A DNA stretch of 42,540 bases from Methanobacteriota archaeon (GTDB lineage: Archaea > Thermoplasmatota > Poseidoniia > Poseidoniales > Poseidoniaceae), in contig JABIGM010000057.1 of assembly GCA_018650165.1 (NCBI GenBank), positions 1-42,540 of the forward strand. Direction: 5' to 3'. The notes under the pieces are model-generated. The model saw only the letters and a program-made list of their open reading frames with translations. It did no database searches and was not told where the DNA came from. The position numbers were made by a program, and so were the translations under genes. Numbering within the stretch: the first letter of the stretch is position 1; every line of letters begins with the position of its first letter. Below are positions 24,371 to 29,450 of this stretch, piece by piece.

Positions 24371-24775
24371 TTATTCAGTTACGTAAGAATAATCCCAATT
24401 TGGAGTGCACCAAGACGGTAGCCCATCGATTCCATCGGGGTTAGAAAGTCCAATTCCCCAAATCATCAATACAACAAACAGAACTGGGAACAGTGCAGTT
24501 CTTGTGTAAATGAAAGGGTCACCCTTCAGATGCATAAAAAATGCTGCAATACCGTACCCTTTGATAATTCCAACAATAATTAAAACTGCCCAAACAGCAC
24601 CTCTTGTGATTACTATGTCAGTACCTGGTATTGTGTCAAAGAACACTGCTGCGACTTCGAATAGTGTAAAGAACATCAGTATTAGGAAGTTCACATAGTA
24701 AACATCCTTGCCGATCATATCAGCCATTTTCTGGAAGAGTCCTGCAATTAGCCCTGTATATTTTTCCTCACTCAT
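24371..24775 (-). CDS. coxD: Cytochrome c oxidase subunit IV (prokaryotic)
   Basis: Three TM helices, FTLFEV, KGYGIAAFFMHLK; follows subunit III. Confidence 0.85.
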   Translation of the reverse strand: MSEEKYTGLIAGLFQKMADMIGKDVYYVNFLILMFFTLFEVAAVFFDTIPGTDIVITRGAVWAVLIIVGIIKGYGIAAFFMHLKGDPFIYTRTALFPVLFVVLMIWGIGLSNPDGIDGLPSWCTPNWDYSYVTE

Positions 24776-24784
24776 ATTATCGCC

Positions 24785-26149
24785 TCAGTACAGATAGAAT
24801 GCTGGGAAGATGGCCACCCAAGCCAAATCCACGAAGTGCCAATACAAACCGAAGTATTCGATTCCACGACCATTATTTTCATCATAGCCCACAGTATCAG
24901 CCTTGAATACCATGAATAGCATAACTAGTAGCCCAATGAATACGTGGAGCCCGTGAGCACCAGTTGCCACATAGAAGATAGAACCGGCTTGACTATCAAT
25001 GGTAAATCCTTCAGCGATTAGATGGCTCCATTCAACCAATTTCAAGACTATGAACAGTGAACCTAGTGCAATAGTAATCAGTAGGTAATTGCGAACAGCT
25101 TTCTTTCTTGAAGGGAATAGTTTTGCTAACAGAGCATTCTTCGAAGGCTCCCAATTTACATTCTTAGCAGTCTTAAGGGCAAGCACGATTGTGTATGAAG
25201 ATATAATCAGAGCAAAAGTATTGATTGCTCCGGGTAGTAAAGTCATAATGTCACCACGAAGTAAATCCGAAGCAGTAGTTGTGTCTACATCACTACACTT
25301 TCCAGCATCTACTGCCCATTGAGTACACCATCCTGTTCTCATTCTTAGGTAAGATGAGAAGAAGGATGCGAAGACCATCATCTCAGAGATAAGGAAAATC
25401 CACATTCCGGCTTTACGAATATCTTGGCCTTCAAATGGATGCGATGTGGCTACTTGTTCAGGGTGTCCTTTCAGATCCTCATTCCACCAGTTACCAATTC
25501 CCATTATCAAAAGAATTGTACCAAATCCAGATAATGCAAATCCAGACAAATCAGCATCATAATCCAAACCTAACCATGCTTTGCAGGTCGTAACAAATCC
25601 AGGGAATCCCATCATGAAGAATAAAATTCCACCAGCCATCATAATCGGTGAGGCTGAACCATGATGTTCTTCGTGGTCATCACCATGGTGTTCTTCTTCA
25701 TCAGGCTTGATACTATTGAAGAATCCAGCAACGCCATAAAATGCAGCGTAAACGATGAACATTACCATAATTGTCTTTCCTGCAGTACTCCAAGTTAGGT
25801 ATGATAGATGCGCATCTACTTGATGATGATGCGCATCATCAGCGACTTGAGTTGCTTCGTCTGATGCAGCTTTAGATTCTAGGTACTCCTCATACAAGGC
25901 ACCCTCTTCTTGGCTACCATTATTTTCCCAGCGACTTTCTGCGAATTTGAATTCTTCTAGTGCCAAATCAGCAGCATTCTTTGCAGCCTCGTATTCCTCA
26001 TTCGCATCATCCCAATCTTGATGCATCATCGAGCCTATTCCTCCGGCCATTACACCGTATGCAAGGACACCAACAACTAGTAGGCCAACTGCAATTACAA
26101 CAGTTCTCATCCAGATGCTATTCTTAACATCGTGCAAGCTTCCGCTCAT
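24785..26149 (-). CDS. coxC: Cytochrome c oxidase subunit III with N-terminal extension
   Basis: GMWIFLISE, NTFALIISS, TGAHGLHV, YWHFVDLAW; canonical start (HHGSASP...WWNED) only at about aa 162. Confidence 0.93.
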   Translation of the reverse strand: MSGSLHDVKNSIWMRTVVIAVGLLVVGVLAYGVMAGGIGSMMHQDWDDANEEYEAAKNAADLALEEFKFAESRWENNGSQEEGALYEEYLESKAASDEATQVADDAHHHQVDAHLSYLTWSTAGKTIMVMFIVYAAFYGVAGFFNSIKPDEEEHHGDDHEEHHGSASPIMMAGGILFFMMGFPGFVTTCKAWLGLDYDADLSGFALSGFGTILLIMGIGNWWNEDLKGHPEQVATSHPFEGQDIRKAGMWIFLISEMMVFASFFSSYLRMRTGWCTQWAVDAGKCSDVDTTTASDLLRGDIMTLLPGAINTFALIISSYTIVLALKTAKNVNWEPSKNALLAKLFPSRKKAVRNYLLITIALGSLFIVLKLVEWSHLIAEGFTIDSQAGSIFYVATGAHGLHVFIGLLVMLFMVFKADTVGYDENNGRGIEYFGLYWHFVDLAWVAIFPAFYLY

Positions 26150-28440
26150 GATTTCTCCTCCTTATTCCAAAGATTGCTCATCGTCCTAAACGGAGAACGC
26201 AACATTGATTCTAATTTCGACTCGTGATGAGGAGCGCCTTCGTTAGCATCTTTCTGAATTGGATTAACTGCGAACGATGGAGTCGGAGGAGGGGACGTGA
26301 CTGCCCATTCTAATGACCAACCGCCCCATGGGTCTTTTCCGACCTTTTCGCCCTTCTTTACTGAACGGATAATGTTCCAAACCAATATGAGTTGAGAGAT
26401 TCCGAATATGATTGCAAATATTGAAATCGCCATGTTCAATTCAGCAAACCCTGAATCCGCAGCATAGGTATGGGTTCTTCTTGGCATGCCCATAATTCCA
26501 ACTGCGTGCATTGGCCAGAAGGCCGCATTGTAAGAACAGAATGCAATCAAGAAGTGCCAAAGACCTAGGGTTTCATTCATCTTACGCCCTGTTACCTTCG
26601 GGAACCAATAGTAAATTCCTGAGAATAGTGCAAAGATAATTCCTCCAATGAATACATAGTGGAAGTGGGCAACTACGAAGTATCCGTCGTGGAATTGTGT
26701 GTCAAGTCCAGCAACAGGGAAGAACATCCCCGATAGTCCTCCTAGTGTAAATGTGATCAAGAACCCTAGTGACCAAAGTGTGTGTGTCTTGAATACCAAA
26801 CTTCCACCCCATAAAGTAGCAAGCCAGTTGAAGATCTTAACTCCGGTTGGAATCGCTACAGCCATTGTGGTAATCATGAATGCAGAACGCCATGCTGGAC
26901 TCATACCACTTGTTAGCATATGGTGCCCCCATACAATGAAACCTACTACTCCGATACCGACCATGGCATAAACCATCGAACGATATCCAAAGATAGAACG
27001 CCTTGCACTAGTGGCAAGAACTTCTGATACAATTCCGAATGCGGGAACCACAACCACGTATACCTCAGGGTGTCCGAAGAACCAGAACAAGTGCTGGAAC
27101 AAGAGAGGGTCTCCGCCTGATGTGAAGAAGGTTGTACCGATTGTAGAATCGAATAATAGGAAGAATACTCCTATGACGAATGCAGGCAGGCTAACGTATA
27201 GCATGAATACACTGATTAGAACAGACCAAGTAAATAGTGGCATTCTCATCCATCCAACACCCTTTGCTCTCATGGTAAAAGTCGTGGTAACGAAATTTAC
27301 ACCAGATAACGTAGAGGATGCTCCCAGTAAGGCAATTCCGGATATGAACGAAATCGTCCCGGCATTCGGACCATAGTCAGTACCTAGTCCTGCAAGACTG
27401 GAATATGGCGGATACATAACCCAAGTAATGTCAGCCCCTTCTCCACTCCAAACTCCAGCAAAGATAAGTGGTGCTGCTGCAACAATTATCCAGAAACCTA
27501 ACGCATTGATTCTAGGGAATGCTAGATCCTTTGCGCCTATTTGTAGAGGTAGAATATAGTTCATAAAACCAGCAATCATTGGCATTGCTGCTAAGAAAAT
27601 CATCGTAGTGCCATGTAAAGTAAAGAACGAATTGTATTCTGATTGTGATAAGAAATCGTTCTCTGGTAGTGCTAATTGTATACGGAATAGCAGTGCTAGT
27701 AATCCTCCAACTAAGAAGAAGAAGAACCCGTAAAGGAAGTATAGAATACCAACCATCTTGTGGTCGGTAGTAGTTAGCCATGGTTTGAGATAAGCCCAGA
27801 AGTTTCCTATGGAGAAATTCTCAGGGTTGCGTGTGTAGAACACCCACATACTTCCAACTAAGATTAGACCAAGGGCTAGCCCGATTACAGTCATCAAAAT
27901 AGTCAGAGCGGCAGCACTTGGAGCGGTAGGGTTCGCATTAACTCCGGATACGGTGATTTCTTCACGGTTCCAATCATCAGCATCTGACGCATCGCCATCT
28001 CCATTTACAGCATTACCATAAACGACGAAGTTTGCTACAGCTGTGTCGTCAGCGGGGGCAGTCCATTTGAATGACCAACTTCTTTGACCATTGATTTCAT
28101 TATTATGAGTTAGTCCACCATCCATTTCGGATGCGCCATCAAGCGATTCAAGAGTTCCGACTCCATCTTCAACGAATATTCTGAATCCACCATTTTGGTC
28201 AGGATTATCAATAGGAACCTTTTCATTAGAAATTGTTAATGTGAAAAGGAATTCTTCTGAAGCATTGAATACTTCAGGAAGCCCATCGATAGTAATTACA
28301 GTATCATCGGTCATACCTCCGTGGCACAGGCAGCCGGAAGGTTCTACATTGCCAATTCCATTCTGTCTTGCTTCAAAAGATGACGTGGATGCTAAAGCAA
28401 CCAATAGTAGGGCGAGAATCGCAACGGTTCGTCCTTTCAT
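26146..28440 (-). CDS. coxA: Heme-copper oxidase subunit I, type A1, with N-terminal extracytoplasmic domain
   Basis: TLHGTTM, KDLAFPRIN (D channel), GHPEVY, WGHHM, PTGVKIF (K channel), VAHFHYV; about 220 extra N-terminal residues. Confidence 0.97.
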   Translation of the reverse strand: MKGRTVAILALLLVALASTSSFEARQNGIGNVEPSGCLCHGGMTDDTVITIDGLPEVFNASEEFLFTLTISNEKVPIDNPDQNGGFRIFVEDGVGTLESLDGASEMDGGLTHNNEINGQRSWSFKWTAPADDTAVANFVVYGNAVNGDGDASDADDWNREEITVSGVNANPTAPSAAALTILMTVIGLALGLILVGSMWVFYTRNPENFSIGNFWAYLKPWLTTTDHKMVGILYFLYGFFFFLVGGLLALLFRIQLALPENDFLSQSEYNSFFTLHGTTMIFLAAMPMIAGFMNYILPLQIGAKDLAFPRINALGFWIIVAAAPLIFAGVWSGEGADITWVMYPPYSSLAGLGTDYGPNAGTISFISGIALLGASSTLSGVNFVTTTFTMRAKGVGWMRMPLFTWSVLISVFMLYVSLPAFVIGVFFLLFDSTIGTTFFTSGGDPLLFQHLFWFFGHPEVYVVVVPAFGIVSEVLATSARRSIFGYRSMVYAMVGIGVVGFIVWGHHMLTSGMSPAWRSAFMITTMAVAIPTGVKIFNWLATLWGGSLVFKTHTLWSLGFLITFTLGGLSGMFFPVAGLDTQFHDGYFVVAHFHYVFIGGIIFALFSGIYYWFPKVTGRKMNETLGLWHFLIAFCSYNAAFWPMHAVGIMGMPRRTHTYAADSGFAELNMAISIFAIIFGISQLILVWNIIRSVKKGEKVGKDPWGGWSLEWAVTSPPPTPSFAVNPIQKDANEGAPHHESKLESMLRSPFRTMSNLWNKEEKS

Positions 28441-29450
28441 ACTAATTCCCCTCCATGGTCAAAGTAGACGCCGAAGTCAGCATCGCAAGTCATACCCTCT
28501 CTAGCAACAACTTCGACTTGTCCATTCATGACAGAGTGTTGTTGGCCACAGTATTCTGCACATCGGATTGGGAATACACCTGCATCATTTGGCTGAACAT
28601 ACATCCAAGTTCCACCTTCTAGTCCCGGGACAGCATCTTCCTTCATGCCCCATTCTTGGAGCCAGAAAGCGTGTTGAACGCCTTGGTATACATTTGATTC
28701 ATTGAACTCGGAATCTCTTATCGGATTGTTACTATGTATGTTGAACATTACATTGATGTCGCACGGGATGATTAGATCTCCGCTCAACTTGTGCTCAACT
28801 GGAATGTGCTGCCAGCGATGTAATACATTCCCTTCTGCATCCAAAATATCCACGGATTGGAATATGAATTCGTTGAACAAAACATCCATTGTTGAATTAT
28901 TGGCCAAGTCCAGATTTTCGGAATTTAAACCGTAGGTTACCGCAGCGGTAGTTGCGCCGGACCCAGCATCAATAGAAAGGCCAGTAAAGGCATCCCAGGT
29001 TACGTTATGACCGGTATCCATGTCCTCCCATGTCAAAGCATCTTGGTAATAGAAATCCCAGTACCATTGTAATCCATTTACTTCAACAGTGAAGGTATCT
29101 TCTTCATATTCTGGATCCAACATGTTCTGTACATCTCCCCAAACAATATTCATTGAACCGAAAGCGAGTATTGTAACCCAAATCACTAGAATGGTTGGTC
29201 CAGCGAACCAAACGAGTTCGAGGTTGAAATCATGGCGTTCTTTCGGGAAAGTACCAACCACCAACCGTTCCTCGTCACTTGTGACCATCTTGTCGATTTT
29301 TGGGTCGACGCCTTCACGGTAACGCAGGATTGCAATTAGCAACCATGCAAACGTGAAGAGACCGACTAATATCGACCAAAACATAAATTTGTCATACAGT
29401 ATATTGAACACCGTATATTCGTCTGGCCACAACTCACGGTCAGCGCCCAT
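28437..29450 (-). CDS. coxB: Cytochrome c oxidase subunit II (CuA)
   Basis: Two TM helices with LELVW, QWYW, QHAFW, CAEYCGQQHSVM; ATGA overlap with subunit I. Confidence 0.95.
   Translation of the reverse strand: MGADRELWPDEYTVFNILYDKFMFWSILVGLFTFAWLLIAILRYREGVDPKIDKMVTSDEERLVVGTFPKERHDFNLELVWFAGPTILVIWVTILAFGSMNIVWGDVQNMLDPEYEEDTFTVEVNGLQWYWDFYYQDALTWEDMDTGHNVTWDAFTGLSIDAGSGATTAAVTYGLNSENLDLANNSTMDVLFNEFIFQSVDILDAEGNVLHRWQHIPVEHKLSGDLIIPCDINVMFNIHSNNPIRDSEFNESNVYQGVQHAFWLQEWGMKEDAVPGLEGGTWMYVQPNDAGVFPIRCAEYCGQQHSVMNGQVEVVAREGMTCDADFGVYFDHGGELV

What the first reader, a model, noticed from the sequence alone, without database searches (positions are those of the whole stretch)
27781..28440. 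Oxidase subunit I fused to an exported Reeler-like domain with a CxCH motif
Seen: signal peptide, GCLCH (C37, C39, H40), GGFRI, GLTH (H112), WSFKWTAP, YGNAVNGDG, then an extra TM before the normal WLTTTDHK start at about aa 221. Known from memory: this pattern matches the Reeler-like choice-of-anchor V domain, often with CxxCH; related beta-sandwiches (DOMON, cellobiose dehydrogenase cytochrome) bind heme. In caa3 oxidases cytochrome c is fused to subunit II, not I. Inference: a heme- or metal-binding electron-input domain with H40 and H112 as possible ligands and an atypical CxCH spacing.
Basis: partly seen in the sequence, partly recalled or inferred. Interest (0 to 1): 0.8.

Follow-up and report, generated by a model that had tools for sequence, protein, structure and literature searches.

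The report
Cytochrome f-like CxCH domain on oxidase
In these very abundant marine archaea the main subunit of the oxygen-reducing enzyme carries an extra outward-facing domain, shaped like plant cytochrome f with an invariant Cys-x-Cys-His site, that probably holds a covalently bound haem and feeds electrons into the enzyme, though haem binding has not been shown.

Summary
The minus-strand ORF 26146-28440 (764 aa) has five parts in order. They are a Sec signal peptide, a 150-aa choice-of-anchor V domain (NCBIfam NF041895, 72 bits against a cut-off of 42), one extra TM helix, a short cytoplasmic loop, and a canonical A1-type oxidase subunit I.

The fusion is real. It occurs in 41 protein clusters of Marine Group II and related archaea. 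C37, C39 and H40 are invariant; H112 is conserved in 97%.

CxCH is the family norm (130 of 138 homologues), not an atypical spacing.

A paralogue heads the Rieske/cytochrome b operon. In another genome a paralogue lies between nrfCD-like genes and ccmABC.

This genome has an archaeal Ccm system but no canonical cytochrome c.

Best reading (about 0.5): a haem c domain that passes electrons to CuA. Rivals are a copper site, or a structural module.

No cofactor was tested, and the 3D clustering of the candidate ligands could not be measured.

The scan found this family before on other genomes, with the same reading. I found no publication describing it.

The parts
26146..28440 (-). Whole fused gene: signal peptide, choice-of-anchor V domain, extra TM helix, then A1-type oxidase subunit I (764 aa)
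   Evidence: ORF and translation. Pfam COX1 at aa 230-678. TIGR02891 at 647 bits and NF041895 at 72 bits. 41 fused homologues.
28369..28440 (-). Sec-type signal peptide, aa 1-24. It has no twin arginine. Predicted cleavage is after A24.
   Evidence: Read from the sequence. The -1 column is A, S or G in 86 of 87 family members. It lies a fixed 3 residues before the invariant G28.
27931..28368 (-). Exported beta-sandwich domain, aa 25 to about 170 (choice-of-anchor V, Reeler-like, cytochrome f-like fold)
28321..28332 (-). C37-L38-C39-H40, the candidate haem c attachment motif (or a metal site)
   Evidence: Invariant in 39 fused homologues and in 87 diverse family members. It sits in a short helical turn of the model.
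28105..28107 (-). H112 codon, within the T-H motif
   Evidence: His in 39 of 39 fused forms. His in 84 of 87 family members and Gln in 3.
27841..27915 (-). Extra transmembrane helix (TM0), aa 176-200, running from outside to inside
   Evidence: Hydrophobic stretch ALTILMTVIGLALGLILVGSMWVFY, conserved in the fused homologues.
27757..27840 (-). Conserved cytoplasmic loop, aa 201-228, ending in WLTTTDHK
   Evidence: Y202, P206, F209, F214, W221, D226, H227 and K228 are invariant or nearly so.
26146..27756 (-). Canonical subunit I core. It carries the haem a, haem a3 and CuB histidines and the GHPEVY motif.
   Evidence: Pfam COX1 over the full profile length. The motifs were read in the translation.
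28437..29450 (-). coxII (337 aa). The CuA ligands H260, C297, E299, C301, H305 and M308 are present. There is no cytochrome c domain.
   Evidence: Translation. Pfam COX2. These residues are invariant in 28 homologues.
24785..26149 (-). coxIII (454 aa, with an N-terminal extension). Its start overlaps the end of coxI by 4 bases.
24371..24775 (-). coxIV-like small subunit
   Evidence: Pfam COX4_pro.

Best explanation
The N-terminal 220 residues are a built-in, outward-facing redox domain of the terminal oxidase. Shown: a Sec signal peptide exports a 150-aa beta-sandwich domain. One extra TM helix then returns the chain to the cytoplasm, so that the 12-helix subunit I core starts in its normal orientation. 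The domain therefore sits on the same side of the membrane as the CuA domain of subunit II. Inferred: the archaeal Ccm system attaches haem covalently to C37 and C39, with H40 as the proximal iron ligand. The distal ligand would be either the alpha-amino group of the mature N-terminus, as in cytochrome f, or H112. This haem would accept electrons from a paralogous domain and pass them to CuA, playing the part that the cytochrome c domain of subunit II plays in caa3 oxidases. Candidate donors are the membrane-anchored subunit encoded first in the Rieske/cytochrome b operon, possibly acting through small anchored paralogues. I put about 0.65 on a redox or electron-input role and about 0.5 on haem c as the cofactor.
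Confidence: 0.5

Rival explanations
1. The domain binds copper, or another metal, through C37, C39, H40 and perhaps H112. It would act either as a copper-based electron carrier or as a built-in metallochaperone. In the chaperone case it would deliver copper to CuB or CuA, by analogy with the CFCF site of Cox11 on an Ig-like domain tethered by one TM helix.
Against: The fold is not a cupredoxin, and no conserved Met or third His exists. A pure chaperone role does not explain the paralogue in the Rieske/cytochrome b operon or the one beside ccmABC. It leaves the complete Ccm system without a substrate. The fold hits to copper proteins cover only the generic sandwich, from residue 25 onward, and not the CxCH segment.
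Confidence: 0.17
2. The domain is a structural or adhesive Reeler-type module with no redox cofactor. CxCH would form a small disulfide loop or a structural zinc site. On CoxI it would only stabilise the complex or dock other externally extended subunits.
For: The family is remotely related to Reeler: 27 of 87 members hit PF02014 and the profile hits F-spondin at E 0.02. Reeler domains in CYBDOM proteins are regarded as adhesion modules of unknown function (PMC10691727). Paralogues sit on long surface proteins carrying TSP3 or Ig-like repeats. CoxII, CoxIII and Sco in this operon also carry extra external modules.
Against: A purely structural motif rarely keeps an invariant His next to the second Cys while the Cys spacing varies. 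The family is repeatedly recruited to redox gene clusters: Rieske/cytochrome b, CoxI, nrfCD-ccmABC and a multicopper oxidase. The Ccm system would again lack clients.
Confidence: 0.15
3. The fusion is an assembly or gene-calling artefact, and the domain and CoxI are really separate genes.
For: None found.
Against: There is one uninterrupted ORF, whose start overlaps the coxII stop. The same architecture appears in 41 clusters from independent assemblies, on contigs up to 200 kb, and in other genomes. The linker, TM0 and the cytoplasmic loop are themselves conserved.
Confidence: 0.01

Closest known systems
Cytochrome f (PetA) of cytochrome b6f complexes
   Different: There is no detectable sequence similarity. 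The motif is CxCH rather than CxxCH. The small domain of cytochrome f is absent. In this gene the domain is fused to oxidase subunit I rather than being a bc-complex subunit. Haem binding is unproven.
Cytochrome c domain of caa3-type oxidases (Thermus, Bacillus, Rhodothermus)
   Same: A redox domain built into an A-type haem-copper oxidase on the outer face, positioned to deliver electrons to CuA.
   Different: In caa3 oxidases it is a class I, all-alpha cytochrome c with CxxCH, fused to the C-terminus of subunit II. Here it is a beta-sandwich with CxCH, fused to the N-terminus of subunit I through an extra TM helix. CoxII here has no such domain.
NCBIfam NF041895, the choice-of-anchor V domain (and NF041894, the MXAN_6652 family)
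   Same: This domain is a member by score: 72 bits against a cut-off of 42.
   Different: In the library used here the family carries only a name, with no function attached. The fusion to CoxI, the link to Rieske/cytochrome b and the ccm context are not part of its name.
Reeler domain (Pfam PF02014; F-spondin 2zou/3coo; SDR2/CG8399 CYBDOM proteins)
   Different: The structural alignments to the F-spondin reeler domain begin at model residue 7, and the sequence match covers only the sandwich core downstream of CxCH. This protein does not reach any Pfam Reeler score.
Halocyanin-Rieske/cytochrome b gene cluster of Haloarchaea (PMC3509893)
   Same: It is an archaeal complex III-like cluster with no cytochrome c1. 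A non-cytochrome-c1 protein encoded in the cluster is proposed to accept electrons from it and to donate them to the oxidase.
   Different: That carrier is a type 1 copper cupredoxin. Here it is a Reeler/cytochrome f-like CxCH domain, and one copy is fused to the oxidase itself.

Membership tests
NCBIfam NF041895 choice-of-anchor V domain | HMM score above the curated cut-off (42 bits) | tested here: met
   72 bits, E 5.3e-20, aa 12-161, profile positions 4-148 of 150. The genome search gave 76.3 bits.
Pfam Reeler (PF02014) | HMM match at the gathering threshold | tested here: inconclusive
c-type cytochrome | Canonical CXXCH haem-attachment motif | tested here: not met
   The motif is C37-L-C39-H40, with one residue between the cysteines. 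This is so in 130 of 138 homologues; 4 have CxxCH and 3 have Cx4CH.
c-type cytochrome | Export of the apoprotein to the outer face by the Sec route | tested here: met
   The N-terminal signal peptide has no twin arginine, and the -1 position is A, S or G across the family.
c-type cytochrome | A cytochrome c maturation system is encoded by the organism | tested here: met
   CcmF-like and CcmC-like, a CcmA-like ABC ATPase, CcmE with CPSKY, and exported thioredoxin-like proteins. All 60 genomes with strong hits in the sample also have PF01578.
c-type cytochrome | Covalently bound haem (haem stain, pyridine haemochrome, mass adduct) | not testable with these tools
   This needs protein biochemistry or metaproteomics.
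Cytochrome f (PetA) | Sequence membership (apocytochrome f Pfam families) | tested here: not met
   No apocytochrome f family appears among the Pfam hits for this protein or among the 25 families listed for its 87 relatives. The profile search of PDB sequences found only Spondin-1.
Cytochrome f (PetA) | Large-domain fold, including the N-terminal haem-binding segment | tested here: inconclusive
Cytochrome f (PetA) | Subunit of a Rieske/cytochrome b complex with a C-terminal TM anchor | tested here: not met
   This copy is fused to CoxI. The paralogue at L009:3222-4010 does meet the feature.
caa3-type oxidase | Class I cytochrome c domain fused to the C-terminus of subunit II | tested here: not met
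   CoxII (337 aa) has only the Pfam COX2 domain and no CxxCH. No PF00034 or PF13442 was found in the genome, which is 80% complete.
A1-type haem-copper oxidase subunit I | Full-length COX1 profile match with the GHPEVY motif and the haem and CuB histidines | tested here: met
   PF00115 positions 2-436 of 436, E 2e-142. TIGR02891 scores 647 bits, just under its equivalog cut-off of 670.75. The motifs WFFGHPEVY, WGHHM and VAHFHYV were read in the translation.
Cox11/CtaG copper chaperone | PF04442 membership | tested here: not met
   There is no PF04442 match anywhere in the genome, so this ORF has none either. The shared feature is only a Cys-x-Cys motif on a TM-tethered beta domain, recalled from memory.
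Cupredoxin (type 1 copper, halocyanin-like) | His...Cys...His...Met ligand set on a cupredoxin fold | tested here: not met
   The only conserved candidate ligands are C37, C39, H40 and H112, with no conserved Met. No cupredoxin appears among the 50 entries listed in either VIA table.

The most novel reading that the evidence does not exclude
The choice-of-anchor V/Reeler-like CxCH domain is a previously unrecognised class of c-type cytochrome. It would be a beta-sandwich like cytochrome f, with haem attached covalently to Cys-x-Cys-His by the streamlined archaeal Ccm system. In Marine Group II and related archaea, paralogues of this one domain would supply the whole high-potential chain: the c1/f-like subunit of the Rieske/cytochrome b complex, small membrane-anchored shuttles, and the electron-entry domain fused to oxidase subunit I. 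Copies on long surface proteins could carry out extracellular redox chemistry. This would also suggest an unsuspected cofactor-binding ancestry for Reeler domains.
Probability: 0.42. Interest if true: 0.9.

Novelty: new variant of a known kind. Interest (0 to 1): 0.78.

Why it matters
Marine Group II archaea are among the most abundant heterotrophs in surface oceans, yet none has been cultured. Their genomes show a Rieske/cytochrome b complex and a CuA-type oxidase. I found no recognised cytochrome c in this genome, and neither gene cluster examined encodes a recognised carrier between them.

This domain family is built into both complexes. That makes it a concrete, testable candidate for the missing link.

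If it binds haem through CxCH, three things follow:
- The known range of haem c attachment motifs, and of Ccm substrate specificity, would widen.
- A second cytochrome f-like fold would be known, outside photosynthesis.
- Motif-based counts of cytochromes c, which rely on CxxCH, would be undercounting in archaeal and some bacterial genomes.

If it binds copper instead, it would be a new copper-site fold in respiration. Either result can be reached with ordinary expression and spectroscopy.

Tried and rejected
(1) Complex prediction: the domain (alignment A1) with haem riding along, against the CoxII soluble domain (A2, aa 105-337). Score 0.02 against a mark of 0.32, so no verdict. It is not evidence either way.

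(2) The 3D clustering of C37, C39, H40 and H112 could not be measured. The structure tool returns no coordinates.

(3) Fe-S (Rieske-like) reading. Rieske proteins also carry a CxCH box (PMC4122944). I rejected this because the signal peptide is Sec-type with no twin arginine, and because the family has only two conserved Cys.

(4) Cox11 homology. There is no PF04442 hit in the genome, and no Cox11, PCuAC, DOMON or cupredoxin entry appeared in the listed structural matches. This is absence from the lists only.

(5) Canonical cytochromes c as alternative Ccm clients.
- The 24 CxxCH ORFs of at least 60 aa were inspected.
- The two plausible exported ones are thioredoxin-like: CANCH within an AhpC/TSA-thioredoxin domain, and WVSTGCSGCH.
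- A third lies deep inside a TSP3-repeat surface protein.

(6) The search for related loci with the 87-sequence alignment failed because it has no conserved stretch. It was rerun with a 12-sequence sub-alignment.

(7) Literature searches for CXCH haem motifs, choice-of-anchor with Reeler and haem, cytochrome f-like proteins in archaea, and MGII respiratory chains found no description. Allen et al. 2009 could not be read.

(8) Gene contexts of the other paralogues in this genome were uninformative. They lie next to FtsZ/RadA genes and to TatC/transhydrogenase genes.

Full report
**The gene.**
The finding lies on the minus strand. The ORF 26146-28440 encodes 764 aa with no stops. Its ATG overlaps the stop codon of coxII (ATGA) and follows a GGAGG. 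The ORF sits in the operon coxII, coxI, coxIII, coxIV, Sco.

Residues 230-678 match Pfam COX1 over the whole profile (E 2e-142). The translation carries the GHPEVY motif and the haem and CuB histidines, so the core is an ordinary A1-type subunit I.

Residues 1-220 are extra. NCBIfam NF041895 (choice-of-anchor V) matches aa 12-161 at 72 bits against a cut-off of 42.

**Topology.**
- A Sec-type signal peptide (no twin arginine) is followed by about 150 exported residues.
- Next come a Pro/Ala linker and a hydrophobic helix (aa 176-200).
- A conserved cytoplasmic loop ends in WLTTTDHK.
- One extra helix is exactly what is needed to place the domain outside while subunit I begins on the cytoplasmic side as usual.
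- The domain therefore shares the outer face with the CuA domain of CoxII. The CuA ligands of CoxII are intact and invariant.

**The fusion is real and conserved.**
- A search with aa 1-220 found 41 protein clusters of 430-793 aa. All carry COX1, and they come from independent assemblies of Poseidoniales and related archaea.
- In 39 distinct N-termini, down to 32% identity, these residues are invariant: G28, G36, C37, C39, H40, H112, W122, N143 and D155. The linker, TM0 and the loop are also conserved.
- tblastn found the same fusion in a genome of another family of the class and in one of another family of the phylum.
- A CoxI with only 38% core identity carries the domain too.

**The wider family.**
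An exhaustive HMMER search found 554 relatives at E up to 1e-3. Most are about 200 aa, with a signal peptide, the domain and a C-terminal anchor.

Of the 138 top hits that retain the N-terminus:

| Motif | Count |
|---|---|
| CxCH | 130 |
| CxxCH | 4 |
| Cx4CH | 3 |

. So CxCH is the norm, not an oddity.

In an 87-sequence alignment the only invariant polar residues are C37, C39 and H40. H112 is His in 84 and Gln in 3. The column just before the mature N-terminus is A, S or G in 86 of 87. It lies a fixed three residues before the invariant G28.

**Fold.**
The AlphaFold2 model of aa 24-175 is confident (pLDDT 90.8, pTM 0.86). It is a nine-strand sandwich with a short helical turn at C-H-G.
- Foldseek gave weak hits to Bacteroides conjugative-transposon lipoproteins (the top three), F-spondin reeler domains and cytochrome f.
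- Only the cytochrome f alignments start at model residue 2, the predicted mature N-terminus, paired with cytochrome f residue 1. They therefore cover the segment that holds CxCH. Generic sandwiches align only from about residue 20.
- By sequence the family is remotely Reeler-like: 27 of 87 members hit PF02014, and the family profile hits F-spondin at E 0.02. It shows no similarity to apocytochrome f.
- The margins are modest. A shared fold does not prove a shared cofactor.

**Genomic evidence on the cofactor.**
The genome (1.75 Mb, 80% complete) has six copies of the domain. Five have GCxCH and one has Cx4CH.

It encodes CcmF-like, CcmC-like and CcmA-like proteins and a CcmE with the archaeal Cys motif CPSKY. 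This matches the streamlined archaeal Ccm set shown to work in Methanosarcina (PMC9084895).

No class I cytochrome c was found. The plausible exported CxxCH ORFs are thioredoxin-like, probably CcmG/ResA-type. The CxCH proteins are thus the obvious Ccm clients.

In a 201-genome sample of the phylum:
- All 60 genomes with strong NF041895 hits, spread over 13 families, also have PF01578.
- Families lacking PF01578 have no strong hits.
- This is a necessary condition passed, not proof. Relatives are not independent, and both traits track aerobic respiration.
- Two possible exceptions have the domain but no PF01578 hit. G150 is 78% complete, and the completeness of the Binatota MAG is unknown.

**Gene context.**
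- One paralogue (262 aa, C-terminal TM anchor) is the first gene of an operon: caV, a 151-aa ORF, a Rieske-like protein (CTHLCC...CICH, Tat signal), cytochrome b, and a 936-aa FeS/CCG protein.
- The same five genes are syntenic in another family of the order.
- No cytochrome c1 or f gene lies in this operon. Haloarchaea encode halocyanin in the same kind of cluster (PMC3509893).
- In genome G018 a CTCH paralogue lies between a Tat-exported 4Fe-4S protein plus NrfD and, two genes further on, ccmA-ccmB-ccmC. From general knowledge, NrfCD-type modules normally work with c-type cytochromes.
- A second paralogue in G018 abuts a multicopper oxidase.
- The family is therefore repeatedly recruited to one-electron redox enzymes.

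**Interpretation.**
The best-supported reading is that this is the electron-entry domain of the oxidase. It would be functionally like the cytochrome c domain of caa3 oxidases, but with three differences: a different fold, attachment to subunit I, and an unprecedented attachment motif.

Haem c is the most likely cofactor (about 0.5). H40 would be the proximal ligand. The distal ligand would be either the free N-terminus or H112.

**Rivals.**
- A Cys2His(2) copper site, acting as carrier or as a Cox11-like chaperone: about 0.17.
- A cofactor-less structural Reeler module: about 0.15.

**Points against haem.**
- CxCH has never been shown to bind haem.
- From memory only, E. coli Ccm does not mature CXCH.
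- H112 is not strictly invariant.
- Some paralogues sit at the tips of long surface proteins.

**Prior work.**
This scan had already noted the same family on other genomes, both fused to CoxI and heading the Rieske/cytochrome b operon, with the same reading. I reached the cytochrome f, Ccm and operon results before reading those notes.

The points I did not see in those notes are:
- the nrfCD-caV-ccmABC cluster;
- the 60/60 co-occurrence count;
- the fixed distance from the signal-peptidase site;
- the His-to-Gln variation at position 112.

Seven literature searches found no published description.

Noticed in passing
L020:7785-16722 (genome G018, contig C3): A plus-strand cluster of eight genes in this order: a Tat-signal 4Fe-4S protein (Fer4_11), NrfD, a choice-of-anchor V protein (CTCH, 354 aa, C-terminal TM), two exported Ig-like proteins of 487 and 531 aa, then CcmA, CcmB and CcmC. 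CcmF lies a few kb further on. It looks like an NrfCD-type quinol module whose only candidate cytochrome is the CxCH protein.
   Followed up: partly
L020:605-3444 (minus strand): A second CxCH paralogue (332 aa, with an fn3 domain) overlaps the end of a 614-aa multicopper oxidase gene (Cu-oxidase_2/_3), as if co-transcribed.
   Followed up: partly
L009:3222-9013 (own genome, contig C16:22221-28012): A Rieske/cytochrome b operon headed by a CxCH paralogue. Its last gene encodes a 936-aa protein with 4Fe-4S dicluster and CCG (HdrD/GlpC-like) domains at aa 560-890. The Rieske-like protein has box I as CTHLCC and does not reach any Pfam Rieske score.
   Followed up: partly
L002 and L004 (own genome, contigs C18 and C35): Two paralogues carry the CxCH (or CGGGYCH) domain at the N-terminal tip of surface proteins of 690 aa or more. 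These are built of TSP3-like Asp-rich repeats or many Ig-like repeats, with a C-terminal TM anchor. Why a putative redox domain sits on such a stalk is unexplained.
   Followed up: no
L012:493-2202 and L013:339-968 (own genome, contigs C12 and C49): The only plausible exported CxxCH proteins of the genome are thioredoxin-like. One is 569 aa, with an N-terminal membrane segment and CANCH inside an AhpC/TSA-thioredoxin domain. The other is a 209-aa lipoprotein-like protein with WVSTGCSGCH. Both are probably CcmG/ResA-type apocytochrome reductases.
   Followed up: partly
window 26146-26149 and 28437-28440: The coxII/coxI and coxI/coxIII junctions both overlap by 4 bases (coxII/coxI read as ATGA), which suggests translational coupling along the operon.
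   Followed up: partly
L023 / genome G201: A MAG labelled 'uncultured Halobacteriales archaeon' gave PF01578 hits at the same three contig positions (C157, C4, C27), with the same E-values, as genome G066 of the window's own phylum sample. The public label and the genome-taxonomy placement seem to disagree.
   Followed up: no
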